28,107 nucleotides of DNA from an uncultured Candidatus Saccharibacteria bacterium. GTDB lineage: Bacteria > Patescibacteriota > Saccharimonadia > Saccharimonadales > UBA4665. A model generated the notes under the pieces. It was given only the letters and a program-made list of their open reading frames with translations, was not told the DNA's origin and did no database searches. Below, one piece after another: positions 42 through 7,105 of the stretch (positions are counted from its first letter, which is position 1; each line of letters starts with the position of its first letter). A program made the position numbers and the translations under genes. The DNA lies in the NCBI GenBank assembly GCA_964595295.1, contig CAZQPT010000005.1:1-28107 (forward strand), in the 5' to 3' direction.

Positions 42-70
42 TTGTTTATAGTACCAATATAAGCTAAAAT
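42..70 (+). promoter_or_regulatory. Candidate sigma70 promoter for tRNA-Gln
   Basis: TTGTTT (42-47), 17 bp spacer, TAAAAT (65-70), 22 bp upstream of the tRNA. Confidence 0.4.
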
Positions 71-77
71 CAATCTG

Positions 78-1607
78 TTAACGACGCGTTAATGGGGCGT
101 GGCCAAGTGGTAAGGCACCAGTTTTTGGTACTGGCATTCGGGGGTTCGAATCCCTCCGCCCCAGCCAATTTCCATTTTCGTTACATTCGGCTATTTTATT
201 GAACGGAAAACGTAATGTTGACCGAAGTAATTTACCACTAAGCTCTAAGTTCGAATGTATGAGTTTTAGCAAAGCTCGTTTTTTATCAATTCCGCCTTTT
301 TCGAATAGTTTGGGCGCATGTTTTGAGAGTTTTAACAGATGAGCTATGGTGCTTAAATTATCTTTCGCCATAAGTTCGATTTTATTTCTACGCTTGGTTA
401 AAGTTTCGATTTTGCTGGCATATTCTTGGCGCTTTTTCTCGTAAAATTCGGGGCTTATGTTGCCGTCTACTTTGTCGTCATACATGTTTTCAATTCTAAG
501 CTCGTACTTTTTGATCTCGGCGTTTAGTGTAGCCAGCCTATCGGCATGTTTACTACTGTCTTGTTTTTTGAGTGCTTTGACCTTCTGGCTGACTTCAATA
601 TAGGCCTGTTCGGGAATGGCAATTTTTCGTATGGTTTCTTTGAGTTGTTTGGTGAGGGCTTTTTCATTCACATACGACGCACCATGCTTGCCGCCAGTCT
701 GTGTGCAATGGCCATAGATGTACTTGCCGTCTTTCTTTTGTTCAAAGGTTATGCGGCGTCCACAGTCGGCGCAGGTGATCAGGCCTCGATAAGGGTACGG
801 CAGACCGGCATAAATAGCTGGTTTGACATTATAGCCCTCTCGCACCGCTTCAACTTTGGCAAATAGCTTTTCACTAATAATGCGCTCGTACTTGTGCGGA
901 TAGAGCTTGCCCTCAACGCACATCTCGCCTTTGTAAAAGGTGTTGGTTAGAATGCGGTAAATCTGGGCAGTGGCTAACTTCACACCGAACTCGCTTTTTA
1001 GATGTTTGCGGATTAGCTTCATGGAACTGACGCCGGTGGCATAATGCTTGTAAATCGCTTCGACTACTTGAGCTTCAAACTTATCTATTTCGATCCACTT
1101 TTTGCCGTCCACTTGTGTGACATTTTTATAGCCATATGGTGCTTCACCAGTCCATAGGCCGTCTCGACGCATTTGCTCAAACCGACGCCTGACGTTATCG
1201 CTAACGATTCTAGAGTAGTGTTCAGCGGTTGTTTCACCGATACCAAGCATAAACCACTCGTTGGCCGAACTTCTAGCGTTTAATTTTAGGTGGTCAGAAA
1301 TGAAATGTATCTCTATTTTGCCAGCATGACAGAGCTTTCGTAGTGCTCGTGTTTCGTCGGCGCTGCTATCTCTAGAAAAGCGGTCAATTTTGTCAAAGAC
1401 TACGGCAACTATATCTAGCTCTGCCTGAATACGGGTAATGATCTCGGCGAATTGTTTACGACCCTCTTTGAAAGCACTTTCTTGGAACTGGCATAGCAGA
1501 GAGCTGGTAAACTCTTTGTCGGCATAGTCTTGCAGCCGGTAGATTTGCGCTGGCAGGGCGTCCTTTTGGTCGTCGGTGGAAACTCTGGCTATGAGATATG
1601 CTTTCAT
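78..1607 (-). CDS. Large serine recombinase (resolvase catalytic domain, recombinase domain, zinc ribbon, coiled coil)
   Basis: Catalytic ARVSTDDQ, DKIDRFSR, GEAPYGY, CADCG...HC zinc ribbon, coiled coil. Start moved from GTG 1622 to ATG 1607 because AGAGGG sits just upstream and MKAYLIARVS is a typical N-terminus. The C-terminal WLGRRDSNPRMPVPKTGALPLGHAP is the antisense tRNA. Confidence 0.93.
   Translation of the reverse strand: MKAYLIARVSTDDQKDALPAQIYRLQDYADKEFTSSLLCQFQESAFKEGRKQFAEIITRIQAELDIVAVVFDKIDRFSRDSSADETRALRKLCHAGKIEIHFISDHLKLNARSSANEWFMLGIGETTAEHYSRIVSDNVRRRFEQMRRDGLWTGEAPYGYKNVTQVDGKKWIEIDKFEAQVVEAIYKHYATGVSSMKLIRKHLKSEFGVKLATAQIYRILTNTFYKGEMCVEGKLYPHKYERIISEKLFAKVEAVREGYNVKPAIYAGLPYPYRGLITCADCGRRITFEQKKDGKYIYGHCTQTGGKHGASYVNEKALTKQLKETIRKIAIPEQAYIEVSQKVKALKKQDSSKHADRLATLNAEIKKYELRIENMYDDKVDGNISPEFYEKKRQEYASKIETLTKRRNKIELMAKDNLSTIAHLLKLSKHAPKLFEKGGIDKKRALLKLIHSNLELSGKLLRSTLRFPFNKIAECNENGNWLGRRDSNPRMPVPKTGALPLGHAPLTRR
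93..167 (+). tRNA. tRNA-Gln (anticodon TTG), CCA encoded
   Basis: Acceptor stem TGGGGCG (93-99)/CGCCCCA (157-163); D arm GCCAAGTGGTAAGGC; anticodon arm CCAGT-TTTTGGT-ACTGG; T arm GGGG-TTCGAAT-CCC; ends GCCA at 164-167; 75 nt. Confidence 0.97.
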
Positions 1608-1646
1608 GTACCCTCTGCCCACCAGTTAGTTATGTTTATTATACCG

Positions 1647-1742
1647 TTAATCATCGTCATCTAGGCCTACTTCGTTGGCAATTTCTTGCAGTATCTGGAA
1701 ATACGCCAACCACGCGTCTAATTCGTCGGCTGGCATACCCAT
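1647..1742 (-). CDS. Unannotated 31-aa acidic ORF MGMPADELDAWLAYFQILQEIANEVGLDDDD
   Basis: Translated by hand. ATG 2 nt after the Rep stop, AGGTG SD-like motif upstream, TAA at 1647-1649. It fills the Rep-recombinase gap. Below the ORF-track length cutoff. Confidence 0.5.
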   Translation of the reverse strand: MGMPADELDAWLAYFQILQEIANEVGLDDDD

Positions 1743-1744
1743 TG

Positions 1745-2587
1745 CTACACCTGTTGCTGCTCTCTGGTTTGTTTGATGTTTTCTACCTGCTCACGAGTAA
1801 AGATGAGGGTTTTGCCCCACTCGTTGCGCCGTTCCCAGACAGGACTAAGGAACGTATACCAGTCGTCAGGGTTATATTCTTTGACTGGTCGGTTTAGCCC
1901 CGTTGATACCCAGTAACGTTTACGGCCACGAAATAGTGGCATTTCTTTGATTAGGTATTTTGTGAGGTAATTGGTGAGCTTTTGACGGTCTTGCGGCGTA
2001 TCTGTAATTTTGTAGACTTCATCGTATCCGAGCGTGTAGCTTGGTAGGTCGTAAACTAGGCGACCCTTCTTTCTAAGGTGTTTGTTGGTTTTTGGATTTA
2101 TTGCTGGCATAACTTTGCCTTTGTAGCCCTTGAATAGGGCGTGAAAGTGGAGTGCGCCGTCACCTTGTAGTTCAGCGACTATGACGTACTCAAAGCTGCC
2201 TTTACGCTTTTTCTCGTTATCGAACCACGTTTCCATTTGTTTGCGGCATTTTTCAATGTCATCTCGGTGCTTTGCAAATGTAAAGGTGACGTATAGCTCA
2301 AAGGTGTTGCAATGAATATAGCCAGTGAGCTGTTTTTTAGCCCGTCTGCGTGATCGCTCTATCGTGGTCTCACTACTTTCGTTTTGTTTAGCCTGCTTTT
2401 TGAGTTTTTTAATTTTCTTGGCTTCACCAATTAGTTCCATGCCAGTTAGCTTTTTATCTTTGGGGTAGTCGGGTACGTAGACTTTGACGTTGAAGTCGTC
2501 GTAGGTGGCTATAGCATGGATTCGATTAGTAGCGTCAACGTGATGTGTCTTGCCTAAAACTTGCCATAACTTGGTCAGGTTATTCAT
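1745..2587 (-). CDS. HUH rolling-circle replication initiator (Rep), two-tyrosine type
   Basis: Motif I YVTFTF, motif II HFHAL (HUH), motif III YLTKYLIK with two Tyr, C-terminal RKRYWVS; AGAGGG upstream of ATG. Confidence 0.82.
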   Translation of the reverse strand: MNNLTKLWQVLGKTHHVDATNRIHAIATYDDFNVKVYVPDYPKDKKLTGMELIGEAKKIKKLKKQAKQNESSETTIERSRRRAKKQLTGYIHCNTFELYVTFTFAKHRDDIEKCRKQMETWFDNEKKRKGSFEYVIVAELQGDGALHFHALFKGYKGKVMPAINPKTNKHLRKKGRLVYDLPSYTLGYDEVYKITDTPQDRQKLTNYLTKYLIKEMPLFRGRKRYWVSTGLNRPVKEYNPDDWYTFLSPVWERRNEWGKTLIFTREQVENIKQTREQQQV

Positions 2588-2605
2588 GACAATGACCCTC
2601 TATGT

Positions 2606-2677
2606 GTCCCGTTAATCAAGTTAAACGGGACTGCGGGCATACGCCCGCGCGGGTGCAGCGAGATTCGCTTAGCACCC
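2606..2677. other. Three back-to-back GC-rich hairpins upstream of rep (candidate replication origin or control structure)
   Basis: GTCCCGTT/AACGGGAC (2606-2631); GCGGGC/GCCCGC (2633-2648); GGGTGC-AGCGA/TCGCT-GCACCC (2651-2677). The hairpins are seen; the function is inferred. Confidence 0.55.
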
Positions 2678-2760
2678 ACGAGTTGCGGATTTCGGTTATT
2701 CCTTAATCCTAAATGCATTTTAAGTTCACTCAATTTCAATTCCCCCTTTCTTTTGGCAGT

Positions 2761-2785
2761 AAAAAACCACCTCATGTTTGGGTGG
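2761..2785 (-). terminator. Intrinsic terminator upstream of rep
   Basis: On the minus strand, a CCACC/GGTGG stem with a 9-nt loop is followed by six T. Confidence 0.65.
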
Positions 2786-2811
2786 CTTCATGCACGAAAA
2801 GAGGTTTCGTC

Positions 2812-2838
2812 TTAGATCATTAGTACGAGTTTGATCAT
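2812..2838 (-). CDS. Candidate 8-aa leader peptide MIKLVLMI
   Basis: Strong SD AAAGGAG (2850-2844), 5-nt spacer, ATG 2838, TAA 2814-2812. Too short to confirm from sequence. Confidence 0.3.
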   Translation of the reverse strand: MIKLVLMI

Positions 2839-3006
2839 TGGCGCTCCTTTGGTTCCATTAAAAAACAGACACCCAAACAGTTTAGTTTGTAGTGTCCGTC
2901 ACGTAGCGGCGCTCTTTTCTCTCCCGTCAGTTGCCTTATCGTACAACTGCTAATAGGTGACGCTCTTTCGTTTCTGGCATTAGTTTTGCATGCCGGACTG
3001 TAGCAT

Positions 3007-3035
3007 ATTGTACGACACCATGCTTATGGTTGCAA
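3007..3035 (-). promoter_or_regulatory. Leftward sigma70 promoter with a palindromic operator in its spacer
   Basis: TTGCAA-17 bp-TACAAT on the minus strand. The spacer contains ACCAT-GCTT-ATGGT (3017-3030). Confidence 0.55.
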
Positions 3036-3078
3036 GCAAAATCTGTGGTGAGGTGTAAGTCTATTGTGTTTGCCCTAC

Positions 3079-3148
3079 AATCCCCGCAGCAGCGGAATTG
3101 TAACACACGCCTAGCGGCGCGTGTTGTTGGGCTGTTTAAGCGGGGATT
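3079..3148. repeat. Long imperfect inverted repeat / nested hairpin
   Basis: AATCCCCGC (3079-3087)/GCGGGGATT (3140-3148) enclosing AACACACGCC-TAGC-GGCGCGTGTT (3102-3125). Confidence 0.6.
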
Positions 3149-3176
3149 TATAACGTCAGAACAGATGAAGGTCTAC

Positions 3177-3205
3177 TTGCATAATTTGCGAAAATGCTGT
3201 ATCAT
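3177..3205 (+). promoter_or_regulatory. Candidate sigma70 promoter for the sugar-enzyme cluster
   Basis: TTGCAT-17 bp-TATCAT, followed by SD TAAGGAG and ATG 3226. Confidence 0.55.
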
Positions 3206-3225
3206 ATTAAGATTAAGGAGTTAGT

Positions 3226-3774
3226 ATGCCCCCACTGAGAGAAACGCCTATTGTTGTAGATCGCCGCTTAGACGGTGAAACTTTGCATGAGTTGAGAGAT
3301 GTAGGGCATGGCCACCGAGTTAACGTTGTTGACGCAAGTTACGATATTCCTCGTGGAGCAAGGGTCGTAAAGTTCCCCGGTACTTCGGCTCAGGCACTTG
3401 AAGCCGTAGTGCGCATTATTCCTATTGAGGGTGAAAATAATGAATTGGGCTGTTCGCCTATTGTAGTTATGGACGCAGACGCTGAGCTTGAGAGCCAGTT
3501 TACTGACGACGGAACTATCAACTATGAGCATATAGCAAAACGGGCTGCGGCTACATTCTTTAAGGTTGGCACACAACTTAATGAACTAGAGATCGGCACA
3601 GAGGTTGACTGGCAAGACTTGCAATACCGATACCGCCAAGATAGCAGCGAGGGAGAGGGTTTCTATAGCATGGCAAATGGCTCACCTGAGACATCATTGT
3701 TTATTCGCACAATTGATGAGCTGCCTTTTGCGTGCGCCAGCGTAGTTGTTGGTCATTCTCAGCGTACAGCGTAG
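3226..3774 (+). CDS. RbsD/FucU-family protein (pyranase/mutarotase-like), divergent
   Basis: GHGHRVNVVDASY resembles the family GHGD-x5-DA motif; FYSMA...FIRTIDELPF resembles FY...IRTGE; SD AAGGAG. Confidence 0.65.
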   Translation: MPPLRETPIVVDRRLDGETLHELRDVGHGHRVNVVDASYDIPRGARVVKFPGTSAQALEAVVRIIPIEGENNELGCSPIVVMDADAELESQFTDDGTINYEHIAKRAAATFFKVGTQLNELEIGTEVDWQDLQYRYRQDSSEGEGFYSMANGSPETSLFIRTIDELPFACASVVVGHSQRTA

Positions 3775-3786
3775 TATACTCAAAAC

Positions 3787-4218
3787 ATGAAGTTCGCAGT
3801 TGCAGGAGACCATTACACCGTAGACCTAATGGAGACAGTGGTTAAATTCTTGAAACCAAAGAATATCGCTATACAGAATCTTGGCACTACCGACCCCAAT
3901 ACAAAGATCAGTCTACAAGAAATAATTCCAGCAGTTGCTAGTAAAGTGCAGTCGGGTGAAGTAGATTTCGGTATTCTTGCCTGTGGTACTGGTGTCGGGG
4001 TCGAGATCGGGGCTAATCGTTTTAAGGGTGTCAGGGCTTCACTTTGTAGGGACGCAGAGCAAGCAAAGAACGCACGTGTTTATGATGACGCAAATGTTTT
4101 ATGTCTAGGCTCGTGGTATAAAGATGATTTTAAGCAAATACTTAGCGCTTGGCTGGACAATAATTTCGACGGTAACGAAAAACGCATAAAAATGCTGAAG
4201 GATTTTGATAATTTATGA
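3787..4218 (+). CDS. RpiB/LacA/LacB-family sugar isomerase with an atypical active site
   Basis: GDH, LGT, GILACGTGVG, ANRFKGVRA, DANVLCLG. Several canonical RpiB residues are substituted, so no gene symbol is given. Confidence 0.88.
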   Translation: MKFAVAGDHYTVDLMETVVKFLKPKNIAIQNLGTTDPNTKISLQEIIPAVASKVQSGEVDFGILACGTGVGVEIGANRFKGVRASLCRDAEQAKNARVYDDANVLCLGSWYKDDFKQILSAWLDNNFDGNEKRIKMLKDFDNL

Positions 4219-4844
4219 GCGAAATTATAGATATATCCCTACCGATTAGCACCAACATGCCCATATATCCTGGCACTGGAGAAACTAAAATTACGCCTGT
4301 TATAAGTGCCAGTGGGAGTTCTGTACTATCAGAAATATCTATGACTTCACATGCTGGTACGCATATTGACGCCCCGAATCATGCACTCGATAGTGATCAG
4401 GGCATTGATAGCCTAGACCTTGAACTATTTTTTGGTAAGTGCCGCGTACTAGATTTAACCAAGTGCGAAATAGCAATTACCCAAGCTGATTTAGAAGCCT
4501 ACGCCGTTCAAGCAAACGAACGTTTGTTGTTTAAGACCAGCAATTCCGCACGTGGCTTTGAAACATTTTATGACGACTATATTTACCTAGACGGCCAAGC
4601 TGCACGATACTTAGGCAAGATTGGCGTTAAGCTCGTAGGTATAGATAGCCTATCTATCAAGCAACGGGGGTCAAAGGACAATACTGCCCATACAGCTTTG
4701 CTATCAAATGGCATACCAATTATTGAGGGGTTGAATCTGGCTCATGTTGAAGCAGGAGAATATACGCTTTGCGCACTACCACTGGCGTTTCAGGGTATTG
4801 ACGGTTCGCCAACTAGAGCCGTACTAATGCCAGTATCAGGTTGA
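4215..4844 (+). CDS. Cyclase-family metal-dependent hydrolase (kynurenine formamidase-like)
   Basis: HAGTHIDAPNH (HxGTHxDxPxH), GIDSLS, H...LL...IIEGL, DGSPTRAV; ATGA overlap with the upstream gene. Confidence 0.9.
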   Translation: MSEIIDISLPISTNMPIYPGTGETKITPVISASGSSVLSEISMTSHAGTHIDAPNHALDSDQGIDSLDLELFFGKCRVLDLTKCEIAITQADLEAYAVQANERLLFKTSNSARGFETFYDDYIYLDGQAARYLGKIGVKLVGIDSLSIKQRGSKDNTAHTALLSNGIPIIEGLNLAHVEAGEYTLCALPLAFQGIDGSPTRAVLMPVSG

Positions 4845-4870
4845 CAAAACAGAGGTGTGTGCGCTAAAAT
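4841..4870 (+). promoter_or_regulatory. Near-consensus promoter firing antisense into the NYN gene 3' end
   Basis: TTGACA (4841-4846), 18 bp, TAAAAT (4865-4870); no plus-strand ORF follows. Confidence 0.55.
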
Positions 4871-4876
4871 AACAAG

Positions 4877-4933
4877 TATCACCATGACCAGGCAGGCCTA
4901 AGGTTTCGACCGACCGCTACTCCTGGTCTTTTT
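4877..4933 (+). ncRNA. Candidate ~57-nt structured RNA antisense to the NYN gene end
   Basis: Outer stem GACCAGG (4886-4892)/CCTGGTC (4922-4928) plus TTTTT; inner GGT-TTCG-ACC tetraloop hairpin; upstream promoter. The start is estimated. Confidence 0.4.
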
Positions 4934-5440
4934 AGTTGGCGTATATTCTAGTTTTAGCCTTAACTGGTTGATCCTGACGATATCTTTGGTAAACCGACGC
5001 AATAACTTCGAGAAGTGATCATTTGGCACCATGACATGCAGCAGTTTGTCTTTTTCTTTCAGGTACTCGACCAAGCAGTGAAAATCACCGTCACCAGTAA
5101 CAATAATCGCTTGATCGTAGTTGTCGATAACCTTTGCGGCAGCATATAGCACTAACTCAGCGTCTACATTACCTTTAACCACTGTTTTGCCGTTCACTTT
5201 GTATTCTGTTGTGGGCTTAAATATGAGGTGATAGCCCATGTTTTGTAGCCTGTCATACAGTGATTCTTGTCCGGCCATTTGCCCGATAAACAAATAGGCC
5301 TTTTCTACGCCATACTTATTTTTGAGATACAGGCGAAACTTACGAAAATCCAGTGTCCAACCAGCACTTTTAACACCTAGGTTTAGGTTTTGGCTGTCAA
5401 TAAACGCATAGACAGTCTGGGGCTTATTTTTGTCACTCAT
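4898..5440 (-). CDS. NYN-domain (LabA/DUF88, PIN-like) putative ribonuclease
   Basis: FIDSQNL, KGNVDAEL and VTGDGDF acidic motifs. Confidence 0.9.
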   Translation of the reverse strand: MSDKNKPQTVYAFIDSQNLNLGVKSAGWTLDFRKFRLYLKNKYGVEKAYLFIGQMAGQESLYDRLQNMGYHLIFKPTTEYKVNGKTVVKGNVDAELVLYAAAKVIDNYDQAIIVTGDGDFHCLVEYLKEKDKLLHVMVPNDHFSKLLRRFTKDIVRINQLRLKLEYTPTKKTRSSGRSKP

Positions 5441-5526
5441 CTGCGCTCTATTATCTCACTGACGTTATCTTTAGGCCAGTCCGATCTGCACTATGCAACT
5501 ACCGTAAATAATGATAGCTTTAGTCT

Positions 5527-5805
5527 ATGGCTATAGATCACGAACAAGGACAAACACCCGAAGTTATCATAGGCGGCACATACGATCATTTCGAGGGTAC
5601 AAGCTACCGAGTGGACGCAGTTGTTACTCGTGCCGAAGATTACGAGCGAACACACCAGCTATCAGAGGACGTTATATACACCCAGCTAAATGACGGTGAA
5701 GTTAATCCAGCTGGCACTCAATATACTCGCTCAAAGACTCAATTCCTTTTCGGCACTGTCGAGGTCGAGGGCAACGAAGTTCCAATCTTCACTTTGCGAG
5801 CTTAG
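5527..5805 (+). CDS. DUF1653-like small protein
   Basis: GGTYDHFEGTSYRV...VIYTQL...YTRSKTQF...VEGNEVPIF matches the family pattern YxHFKGxxYxV...VVY...W.RP..MF...VPRF as recalled. Confidence 0.6.
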   Translation: MAIDHEQGQTPEVIIGGTYDHFEGTSYRVDAVVTRAEDYERTHQLSEDVIYTQLNDGEVNPAGTQYTRSKTQFLFGTVEVEGNEVPIFTLRA

Positions 5806-5831
5806 TTCAAAGTTGCGAAGCTCATCTACTA

Positions 5832-5842
5832 GCCCCAGCCAA
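5832..5842 (+). repeat. tRNA-Gln 3'-end copy GCCCCAGCCAA (att-like)
   Basis: Identical to 158-168; directly followed by a strong hairpin. Confidence 0.65.
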
Positions 5843-5885
5843 AGTAAAAGCACCATGTCCGTAAGGATTTGGTGCTTTTACTTTG
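5840..5885. terminator. Perfect 16-bp inverted repeat (terminator-like)
   Basis: CAAAGTAAAAGCACCA/TGGTGCTTTTACTTTG with an internal TCC-GTAA-GGA loop. Confidence 0.75.
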
Positions 5886-5904
5886 CATGAGTGGGTTAAC
5901 AGAA

Positions 5905-5994
5905 GGTTCGGTGGAGCGAGGACGCGCGCAGGAATGTATTCCGAGCACGCCGCAGTGGAAAAGCACGGAGTGCGCTACCCCTAATCCCCAGTCA
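5905..5994 (+). repeat. Miniature element A inside T-arm-like sequence, ending in a degenerate tRNA 3' end
   Basis: GGTTCG-GTGGAGCGAGGACGCGCGCAGGAATGTATTCCGAGCACGCCGCAG...GCGCT-ACCCCT. The following CCCTAATCCCCAGTCA (5979-5994) matches tRNA 152-167 at 12/16. Confidence 0.7.
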
Positions 5995-6044
5995 TTACGA
6001 ACTACATCTGTAGAACTTAGCCAGACTAAGTGAGAGTTAGAACC

Positions 6045-6070
6045 AAAGACTTCCTAGGAAGTCTTTTTTA
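6045..6070. terminator. Perfect palindrome plus T-tract
   Basis: AAAGACTTCCTAGGAAGTCTTT (6045-6066) followed by further T. Confidence 0.7.
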
Positions 6071-6086
6071 TTGCTACAATTAACAA

Positions 6087-6779
6087 ATGAGAAGACAGCA
6101 AGAGATCTGGCTGAAAGAGCATACGGATAAGGGCACCCTACCAACAATGGCAAACATAGAGCCAGCAAGCGGTGTCATCCTATTTAGCGATTGGCTCGTT
6201 AAAAATGGCACTCTCTTTTCTGGAAAAGCAGTTGATATCGGTTGCGGCAAGGGACGCAACAGTGTTTATTTGGCAACATTAGGGTTTGAAGTATGGGCGC
6301 TTGAGTATATTGAACCAGCTATTGAAGCCTCAAAGGAGCTTGCATGTAGCAGAAAGGTGACTAATGAGATCCATTTTGAGCTTACTGAAATAGATAAGCC
6401 TTGGAAAATTGAAGACAACTTTTTTGATGTAGCAGTTGACTCTTTTTCAAGTATCGATATCGAGACAAAGCAAGGTCGTGAAATTTGCAGAGATGAGATG
6501 CTAAGAACTCTTAAGCCCGGGGGATACGCTCTCGTTACCGCATGTTCCGCGGAGGATGAATGGGAAAAAGAACTAATTGCAAATCATCCAGGCTCAGAAC
6601 CGAACAGTACTGTTTGGCCACAGAATGGTAAATTTCAAAAAGACTATACAGAGTCAGAGCTGCGCAAATTCTACAGTGTATTTGAAGTAGTTGAGCTTAA
6701 GTCCATCAACAAACCAGCATTTAAGCTAGGTCGAGGCGGAACTGCTACCAATTTGTGGATGGTTTTGCGAAAGAAATAA
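6087..6779 (+). CDS. Class I SAM-dependent methyltransferase (TehB-like motif I)
   Basis: VDIGCGKGRNSVYLA, FDVAVD and LKPGG motifs. Confidence 0.9.
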   Translation: MRRQQEIWLKEHTDKGTLPTMANIEPASGVILFSDWLVKNGTLFSGKAVDIGCGKGRNSVYLATLGFEVWALEYIEPAIEASKELACSRKVTNEIHFELTEIDKPWKIEDNFFDVAVDSFSSIDIETKQGREICRDEMLRTLKPGGYALVTACSAEDEWEKELIANHPGSEPNSTVWPQNGKFQKDYTESELRKFYSVFEVVELKSINKPAFKLGRGGTATNLWMVLRKK

Positions 6780-6807
6780 GTTCTAACCTGGTACATTATA
6801 CTCAGCC

Positions 6808-6845
6808 ATACAAAAAAGACCTGCTTTATGTAGGTCTTTTTGTAT
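6808..6845. terminator. Bidirectional terminator hairpin
   Basis: ATACAAAAAAGACCT...AGGTCTTTTTGTAT, preceded by CTCAGCCA. Confidence 0.75.
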
Positions 6846-6859
6846 TGATTGAACAGAAC

Positions 6860-6933
6860 GGTTCGGCGTAGCGGCCGCAGAGAGCGTAGAAGCGACGAGG
6901 CAAAGCCGAGGGAAGCGCTATCCCTCCGCCCCA
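6860..6933 (+). repeat. Miniature element B splitting a tRNA-Gln T-arm copy; best attR candidate
   Basis: GGTTCG + 54-nt insert + ATCCCTCCGCCCCA, compared with the tRNA GGTTCG-A-ATCCCTCCGCCCCA. Confidence 0.7.
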
Positions 6934-6941
6934 AATATTGG

Positions 6942-7037
6942 GGTACAGTGAAGCAAGACTCGCACAGGAGTGTACATATAATTATATGTACACTACGAGC
7001 ACGCCGCAGCGCAAAAGCGCGAAGCACGCCATCCCCT
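6942..7037 (+). repeat. Miniature element C, homolog of A, with a 26-bp perfect palindrome
   Basis: Aligns by eye with 5905-5982 along its length (CAGGA.TGTA, CGAGCACGCCGCAG, AAAAGC.CG.AG). Palindrome AGTGTACATATAATTATATGTACACT at 6969-6994. Confidence 0.8.
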
Positions 7038-7105
7038 TATTTACGACTTTGCTAGCTTTTGTCTTTATTGCTATCGTCATAGCCATGATAGCCACAAGGT
7101 TGCTT

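What the first reader, a model, noticed from the sequence alone, without database searches (positions are those of the whole stretch)
78..200. Recombinase ORF reads antisense through the entire tRNA-Gln, with its stop in host DNA
Seen: the recombinase has no stop of its own before the tRNA. Its last ~29 residues come from the antisense tRNA and upstream sequence (TAA at 78-80). Established: an att site inside the integrase gene, with an altered C-terminus after recombination, is known for phage Mx8 and some actinophage and SSV tyrosine integrases. tRNA targeting is mostly a tyrosine-integrase trait. Inference: the integrated and excised forms encode different C-termini, which could act as a directionality or stability switch. 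Transcription also collides with the tRNA promoter.
Basis: partly seen in the sequence, partly recalled or inferred. Interest (0 to 1): 0.68.

Follow-up and report, generated by a model that had tools for sequence, protein, structure and literature searches.

The report
Serine integrase gene spanning its attP
A 5.7-kb mobile element sits exactly at the CCA end of a tRNA-Gln gene in a Saccharibacteria-type genome, and because its recombination site lies inside its own integrase gene, insertion swaps the enzyme's conserved end helix for meaningless residues read off the tRNA's opposite strand, a layout shared by a large family of such elements.

Summary
Observation confirmed: the large serine recombinase ORF (1607 to 78, minus strand) has no stop before tRNA-Gln(TTG); its Trp481 codon is the exact antisense of the tRNA's CCA. 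This is a family trait, not a lost stop: 119 of 178 related hits show the same register at Gln, Asn, Trp, Arg, Gly, His and Asp tRNAs. The tRNA-derived tail (3-93 aa) is junk. The right end is 5832-5842; excision would give a 5,674-bp circle and a 516-aa integrase ending in a conserved amphipathic helix (WLGLVDELRNF) whose DNA doubles as the attP arm and shows coding-type constraint. Natural attP junctions exist in relatives, but no closed circle was found. Candidates 5979 and 6920 are not att arms; further arms at 6808 and (weak) 6023 bound cassettes. An overlooked 31-aa gene (1647-1742) is a candidate directionality factor (complex score 0.80, best control 0.00), so the tail swap is probably one control layer, not the only switch. 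Precedents: Dehalococcoides DsiB, rumA ICE integrases, Mx8. This scan noted the same family on other genomes before.

The parts
93..167 (+). tRNA-Gln(TTG), the target; its 3' half is the B arm of attL
   Evidence: ARAGORN; only tRNA-Gln(TTG) found in this 77% complete assembly
158..168 (+). attL core (11-bp direct repeat with 5832-5842); family-wide shared core is the last 6 tRNA bases
   Evidence: (95-96% identity at positions 1-6, 40% at position 7, over 115 arms)
78..1607 (-). large serine integrase, integrated (attL) form, 509 aa; Ser10 nucleophile, Cys279/282/301 + His308 zinc site, Trp481 on the CCA; residues 482-509 from antisense tRNA and leader
   Evidence: tail pLDDT below 50
42..70 (+). 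possible tRNA promoter (TTGTTT, 17 nt, TAAAAT); the integrase stop at 78-80 lies near the expected start site
   Evidence: read from the sequence; below the scanner's cut-off; weak, inferred
1647..1742 (-). 31-aa single-helix protein between rep and integrase; candidate recombination directionality factor
   Evidence: homologs in about 100 related loci; no Pfam family; predicted complex 0.80 vs best control 0.00
1745..2587 (-). replication protein (PF23343 REP_ORF2-G2P), co-oriented with the integrase
   Evidence: same rep-small gene-integrase order in L216, L217, L219, L221
2588..3150 (.). region upstream of rep, probable promoter/origin; 84% identical in relative L220
   Evidence: blastn 1862-3148; function inferred
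3226..5805 (.). cargo: RbsD/FucU-like, RpiB, cyclase, NYN (minus strand), DUF1653; not found in any related locus
5809..5842 (-). attR: P arm plus core; encodes the attP-form end helix (WLGLVDELRNF) in frame from Trp481
   Evidence: 36 bits; shuffled maximum 12.7; 89-94% identical arms at the far end of L216, L217, L221, which were not in the training set
5842..5883 (+). terminator-like hairpin, the displaced tRNA 3' flank (B' side)
   Evidence: z -7.3; same kind of hairpin follows several unoccupied tRNAs of this genome
5884..6023 (.). gene-less mini-unit with a repeat also found after other tRNAs, a tRNA-end-like repeat (5979-5994) and a weak P arm ending at 6023
   Evidence: 3.4 bits
6024..6808 (+). 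single-gene cassette: hairpin 6045-6066, methyltransferase 6087-6779, second P arm 6772-6808
   Evidence: 20 bits; arm 95% identical to one in L220
6809..6937 (+). second hairpin (6813-6841) and mini-element ending in a 14-bp tRNA-end repeat (6920-6933); not an attP arm

Best explanation
A small integrative, probably plasmid-like element (rep, 31-aa gene, serine integrase, cargo; 168-5841) of a family that targets tRNA CCA ends. SHOWN in sequence: attP lies inside the integrase gene; the shared core is the last 6 tRNA bases, with CCA read as Trp481; in attP form the gene continues into an amphipathic helix encoded by the attP arm now parked at attR (516-aa protein); in the integrated form it continues into unconserved antisense tRNA sequence. 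The P arm resembles the tRNA T-arm with its distal motif shifted 5 bp, the attP/attB geometry known for serine integrases, so the enzyme appears to read the universal T-loop. INFERRED: both forms keep all canonical integrase domains; the helix-bearing form is the integration-competent or more stable form; the helix-less form, probably damped by convergent tRNA transcription since the terminator was moved 5.7 kb away, excises the element when bound by the 31-aa protein at the coiled-coil base. Integrase-less one-gene cassettes that end in the same P arm stack behind the tRNA; one placed between tRNA and integrase hands the helix back.
For: Register 0 in 119/178 hits at seven tRNA types; 101/120 database homologs end in tRNA-antisense tails, 8 in attP-type tails. 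P arms: 149 upstream on the integrase strand, 0 on the opposite strand; pattern in 34/121 family genomes, 0 with the reversed control. Coding-type constraint in the attP frame only: pN/pS 0.56 and 3 stops at codons 4-10 versus 0.73-1.44 and 19-85 stops in the other five frames; 0.38 at codons 12-30, beyond the binding site, in 22 DNA-selected pairs; Arg codon CGA changes to AGA 14 times, to TGA once. Natural attP junction: L219 is a head-to-tail 3,771-bp dimer whose inner integrase carries exactly the attR tail; L220 (79-84% DNA identity) also has an attP-type tail; 59 more attP-tailed proteins. 5-bp shift: profile match 0.52 at shift 5, at most 0.33 elsewhere (rule from PMC3783163). AlphaFold: attP residues 481-489 form a helix at pLDDT about 86, tRNA tail below 50. 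Small protein: score 0.80, best of 3 controls 0.00; mark reached by 58 of 80 solved and 2 of 110 mismatched pairs; runs agree in at least 35% of contacts, partner pLDDT at least 43 (one of three runs scored 0.01); interface 331-343, 416-450, 466-469, the junction where known factors bind.
Against: No closed circular contig was found and no empty allele in a close relative (G001's contig ends inside this tRNA). L219's dimer is 100% identical and could be an assembly of circle plus integrated copy. In this window's subfamily the arm is conserved for only 33-39 bp and one relative stops right after residue 11; window codons 13 onward overlap the cargo gene's end. pN/pS pairs are not independent and the first 10 codons are also a binding site. 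The two AlphaFold runs used different alignments (95 and 46 rows). No activity, expression or stability data.
Confidence: 0.72

Rival explanations
1. The swap is real but functionally neutral: the arm is conserved as a DNA binding site, the peptide motif is a by-product, and directionality rests wholly on the small factor.
For: The arm mirrors the tRNA T-arm with a 5-bp shift; conservation falls off after codon 10-11; the Listeria integrase ends at about profile position 461, before Trp481, so the canonical fold is complete without the tail; integrated tails of 3-93 aa are tolerated.
Against: Synonymous excess and near absence of stops only in the attP frame, also in cassette arms (pN/pS 0.49) and beyond the binding site; first-attR tails have median 29 aa, 57 of 74 at least 25 aa; the extreme C-terminus of SPbeta SprA, the best fold match, is reported to control directionality (PMC11722253 citing Abe et al. 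2021).
Confidence: 0.2
2. The integrated form is essentially switched off (unstable protein or silenced message), as reported for reduced activity of the Mx8 prophage integrase; excision needs rare read-through protein or a helix-bearing integrase supplied in trans by a tandem element or cassette-fused copy.
For: Tail predicted disordered; no stable hairpin in 168-300 of this window (z 0.2) while the strong hairpin sits at 5842; tandem and cassette-fused copies with the helix exist (L156, L062, L143, L219, L220); Mx8 precedent (PMC4701971).
Against: The integrated ORF is intact over 480 codons with all invariant residues; about half of relatives have a structured 70 nt after the tRNA (median z -2.1), which could stop read-through; the small protein is predicted to bind the helix-less domain. 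This rival overlaps with the best explanation.
Confidence: 0.25
3. One-off loss of a stop codon in an ordinary recombinase next to a tRNA.
For: None beyond the junk nature of the tail.
Against: Invariant Trp on CCA across seven tRNA types in Patescibacteria, and also in a 30%-identical relative at tRNA-Leu; matching attR arm in this window.
Confidence: 0.01

Closest known systems
Dehalococcoides ssrA genomic islands, integrase DsiB (McMurdie et al. 2011, PMC3146451)
   Same: [quoted passage not shown]
   Different: Target is tmRNA, one host group, six-gene module with second recombinase DsiA; here tRNA CCA ends of seven types, fixed Trp-on-CCA register, rep plus 31-aa partner, and one-gene cassettes. 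No conserved attP tail was shown for DsiB.
Streptococcal ICEs integrated in rumA by a single serine integrase (PMC4701971)
   Same: att site inside the serine integrase gene; integration changes its C-terminus.
   Different: Target is a protein gene whose 3' end is swapped reciprocally; large conjugative elements; here the target is a tRNA read antisense and left intact.
Myxococcus phage Mx8 IntP/IntX (as described in PMC4701971)
   Same: attP inside the integrase gene; prophage form has a short replaced tail and is less active.
   Different: Tyrosine integrase of a tailed phage; 112 residues replaced by 13; here only residues after the complete serine-integrase fold change.
SPbeta SprA with SprB and other phage large serine integrases (PMC11722253, PMC3783163)
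   Same: Same fold (Foldseek E 2e-16 to 9dxd), 5-bp attP/attB shift, small helical partner predicted at the coiled-coil base.
   Different: Their attP lies outside the gene; about 15% sequence identity; here the host-side B' arm shows little family-wide conservation.
Integron cassette arrays and staphylococcal SCC composite islands (own knowledge)
   Same: Rows of small, co-oriented, recombinase-less units each ending in a recombination site; SCC uses serine recombinases at a gene's 3' end.
   Different: No IntI or attC; sites are attP arms of the serine integrase and code for its last helix; no ccr pair.

Membership tests
Large serine integrases | Catalytic, recombinase, zinc-ribbon and coiled-coil domains with Ser nucleophile | tested here: met
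Large serine integrases | Short shared core, attP and attB arms with distal motif shifted 5 bp | tested here: met
   6-bp core; shift 5 for P versus B. No symmetric motif detected in P' or B'.
Large serine integrases | Directionality factor binding the DBD2/coiled-coil junction | tested here: inconclusive
   Prediction only: 0.80 vs best control 0.00, 58/80 solved and 2/110 mismatched pairs reach the mark, one of three runs failed
Large serine integrases | Unidirectional attP x attB recombination | not testable with these tools
   needs an assay
Integrases with attP inside their gene (DsiB, rumA ICE, Mx8) | ORF crosses att; C-terminus differs between states | tested here: met
Integrases with attP inside their gene (DsiB, rumA ICE, Mx8) | Integrated form differs in activity | not testable with these tools
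   shown for Mx8 only
Dehalococcoides ssrA islands | tmRNA target and dsiA/recF/parB/mom module | tested here: not met
   target is tRNA-Gln; module is rep, 31-aa gene, integrase
Integrons | IntI tyrosine integrase and palindromic attC sites | tested here: not met
   recombinase is a serine enzyme; unit ends are attP arms with tRNA core
Integrons | Arrays of single co-oriented ORF units with variable content | tested here: met
   49 of 61 units under 1.6 kb hold one tRNA-sense ORF; content differs between related loci
SCC/Ccr | ccrAB or ccrC complex at rlmH | tested here: not met
   single integrase in the assembly, tRNA target
Prophage (inovirus-like) | Virion or assembly genes | tested here: not met
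   none among the element's ORFs; no relatives in the viral contig scan

The most novel reading that the evidence does not exclude
The attP arm is a dual-coding module, binding site and last helix of the integrase at once, and that helix works with or against the 31-aa factor at the coiled-coil base. The enzyme thereby senses whether its own gene is free, integrated or preceded by a cassette, and drives an integron-like cassette system at tRNA ends across Patescibacteria.
Probability: 0.35. Interest if true: 0.82.

Novelty: new variant of a known kind. Interest (0 to 1): 0.62.

Why it matters
It turns a question left open for DsiB in 2011 (is the integrase complete only on the circle?) into a direct test with a defined 11-residue helix, natural proteins of both forms and a candidate directionality factor. 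It shows a main route by which ultra-small Patescibacteria genomes gain and swap accessory genes. The family appears to read the universal tRNA T-loop plus CCA with little demand on the other host arm, which is unusual for serine integrases and of interest for integration tools. It also warns that annotated C-termini of these recombinases in databases are mostly antisense-tRNA read-through. I found no paper describing the family in the library searched, which lacks most subscription papers.

Tried and rejected
Right ends 5979 and 6920: joined in register they give an immediate TGA or a tRNA-like peptide and score under 5 bits as arms. The 11-bp core alone is not significant (about 0.2 expected by my estimate); the call rests on arm, hairpin and relatives. 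The window arm seeded the profile, so its 36 bits are inflated; the independent check is. Inverted spare attP reported by earlier scan notes: no opposite-strand arm in the window or in related loci. Symmetry between P and P' or B and B' arms: none detected. Replacement terminator inside the integrase 3' end: not in this window, present in about half of relatives. Circular contigs: none with terminal repeats. Viral contig scan empty; plasmid and phage collections hold only distant relatives. Empty site in G001 not resolved. Cassette genes are mostly not defence genes by PADLOC. The reconstructed 516-aa protein was not folded (not a natural sequence of this window); the natural attP form from L219 was used. 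Abe et al. 2021 could not be read; Durrant et al. 2023 does not mention tRNA targets.

Full report
Observation. The window begins with tRNA-Gln(TTG) at 93-167. A 509-aa ORF on the minus strand (1607 to 78) carries the three Pfam domains of a large serine recombinase. Its codon 481 (Trp) is the reverse complement of the tRNA's CCA; 25 codons run through the tRNA, four through the leader, and the stop is at 78-80. The leader is host DNA, conserved in a same-genus genome. Relatives are mostly from Saccharibacteria and other Patescibacteria.

Not a one-off. The Trp is invariant in 46 aligned homologs, and 101 of 120 database homologs continue into tRNA-antisense peptides. In 178 locus hits, 119 have the Trp codon exactly on a tRNA CCA, at Gln, Asn, Trp, Arg, Gly, His and Asp tRNAs; tails range from 3 to 93 residues. 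A 30%-identical relative from a gut sample does the same at tRNA-Leu. The integrated tail is therefore an accident of the target; the register is the conserved thing.

The right end. An 11-bp repeat of the tRNA end lies at 5832-5842, followed by a strong hairpin (z -7.3) of the kind that follows several unoccupied tRNAs in this genome. Read in frame from the Trp, the element side gives WLGLVDELRNF and a 36-aa tail. A DNA profile grown from this site found 102 such arms; at 15 bits or more there are 149 upstream of the integrase on its strand and none on the other strand, with a shuffled maximum of 12.7 bits. Relatives fetched later (L216, L217, L221) have 89-94% identical arms at the far end of elements with different cargo. 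Additional arms lie at 6808 and weakly at 6023. Excision at 5841 gives a 5,674-bp circle and a 516-aa integrase.

The attP junction occurs in nature. L219 holds a head-to-tail dimer of a 3,771-bp element at tRNA-Trp; the inner integrase ends in exactly the tail stored at attR, the outer one in tRNA antisense. L220, the closest relative, L156, L157, L168, L070 and L086 also carry attP-type tails, and a profile search returned 59 more. No closed circle was seen.

Is the tail functional? The arm is first a binding site: its inner part matches the tRNA arm at shift 0 and its distal motif matches the T-loop at shift 5, the attP/attB rule of serine integrases (PMC3783163); the shared core is six bases. 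But it also behaves as coding sequence in the attP frame only: pN/pS 0.56 with 3 stops against 0.73-1.44 with 19-85 stops in other frames, CGA to AGA 14 times against TGA once, and pN/pS 0.38 at codons 12-30 in 22 pairs chosen by DNA identity. These pairs are not independent. First attR tails have a median of 29 aa, cassette arms 20 aa, both with pN/pS near 0.5. In this window's subfamily only about 11 codons are conserved. AlphaFold places residues 481-489 of the natural L219 attP form as a helix at pLDDT about 86 and the rest low; the window's tRNA tail is coil below 50 (different alignment). Both forms keep the whole canonical fold, since the Listeria integrase aligns only to about position 461. 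The best structural match is SPbeta SprA, whose extreme C-terminus is reported to affect directionality (PMC11722253).

A missed part. Between rep (1745-2587) and the integrase is a 31-aa single-helix ORF (1647-1742) with homologs in about 100 related loci and no Pfam family. A complex prediction with the helix-less C-terminal domain scored 0.80 against a best control of 0.00 (mark reached by 58 of 80 solved and 2 of 110 mismatched pairs; runs agree in at least 35% of contacts; partner pLDDT at least 43; one run of three scored 0.01), at residues 331-343, 416-450 and 466-469. That is the junction where known directionality factors bind. This supports binding; it does not show it.

Cassettes. 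Many loci have several arms. Of 61 units under 1.6 kb, 49 hold one ORF in tRNA sense ending mostly 9-70 bp before the core; related elements at the same tRNA have different units; content is largely unknown, with NUDIX and small enzymes. Units also sit directly behind tRNA-Gln with no integrase nearby (L224, L225, L229-L231), or between tRNA and integrase, where they supply the helix (L062, L143). In this window the methyltransferase at 6087-6779 is such a unit.

Mechanism. Shown: att inside the gene, tail swap, arm geometry, coding signal, cassette layout. Inferred: the helix-bearing form integrates, the helix-less form is weaker or less stable and excises with the 31-aa factor, and convergent tRNA transcription damps the integrated gene because no stable hairpin follows this tRNA, although about half of the relatives have one.

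Comparison and verdict. An att site inside a serine integrase gene is known: DsiB at tmRNA (PMC3146451) and rumA ICEs, with Mx8 as tyrosine precedent (PMC4701971). The tRNA-CCA register, dual-coding arm, small partner and cassette rows were not found in the papers searched. This scan noted the family, the arrays and a small partner on other genomes; those notes are not independent evidence. New variant of a known kind; interest 0.62.

Noticed in passing
window 5884-5994 and 6845-7040; G000 C31, C47, C61, C10, C20, C6: A family of roughly 100-150-bp repeats follows several tRNAs of this genome after their terminator hairpin and often ends in a copy of that tRNA's 3' end; it does not fold better than shuffles. 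Origin unexplained.
   Followed up: partly
L220:4586-6775 (P0002): In the closest relative rep and integrase are joined in one 729-aa ORF and the small gene is gone; may be a natural deletion or an assembly error.
   Followed up: partly
G000 C4 15217-15545: tRNA-Gln(CTG) is followed by a 250-bp one-ORF unit that ends in a repeat of the tRNA end (15 bits on the arm profile), without an integrase.
   Followed up: no
G000 C23 near 174; G001 C2 7497 and 10175: Further arm-like sites away from this locus.
   Followed up: no
L057, L083, L090, L091, L107: Integrase tails look like antisense tRNA-Asn but ARAGORN called no tRNA there; possibly intron-containing tRNAs.
   Followed up: no
L119, L125, L173, L174, L198, L103: Many metagenome contigs begin at attR and end at attL, as expected if the element is present in only part of the population.
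   Followed up: no
window 3226-4844: Cargo operon of an RbsD/FucU-like protein, ribose-5-phosphate isomerase B and a cyclase-family protein, a sugar-related set unusual as cargo among the related loci.
   Followed up: no
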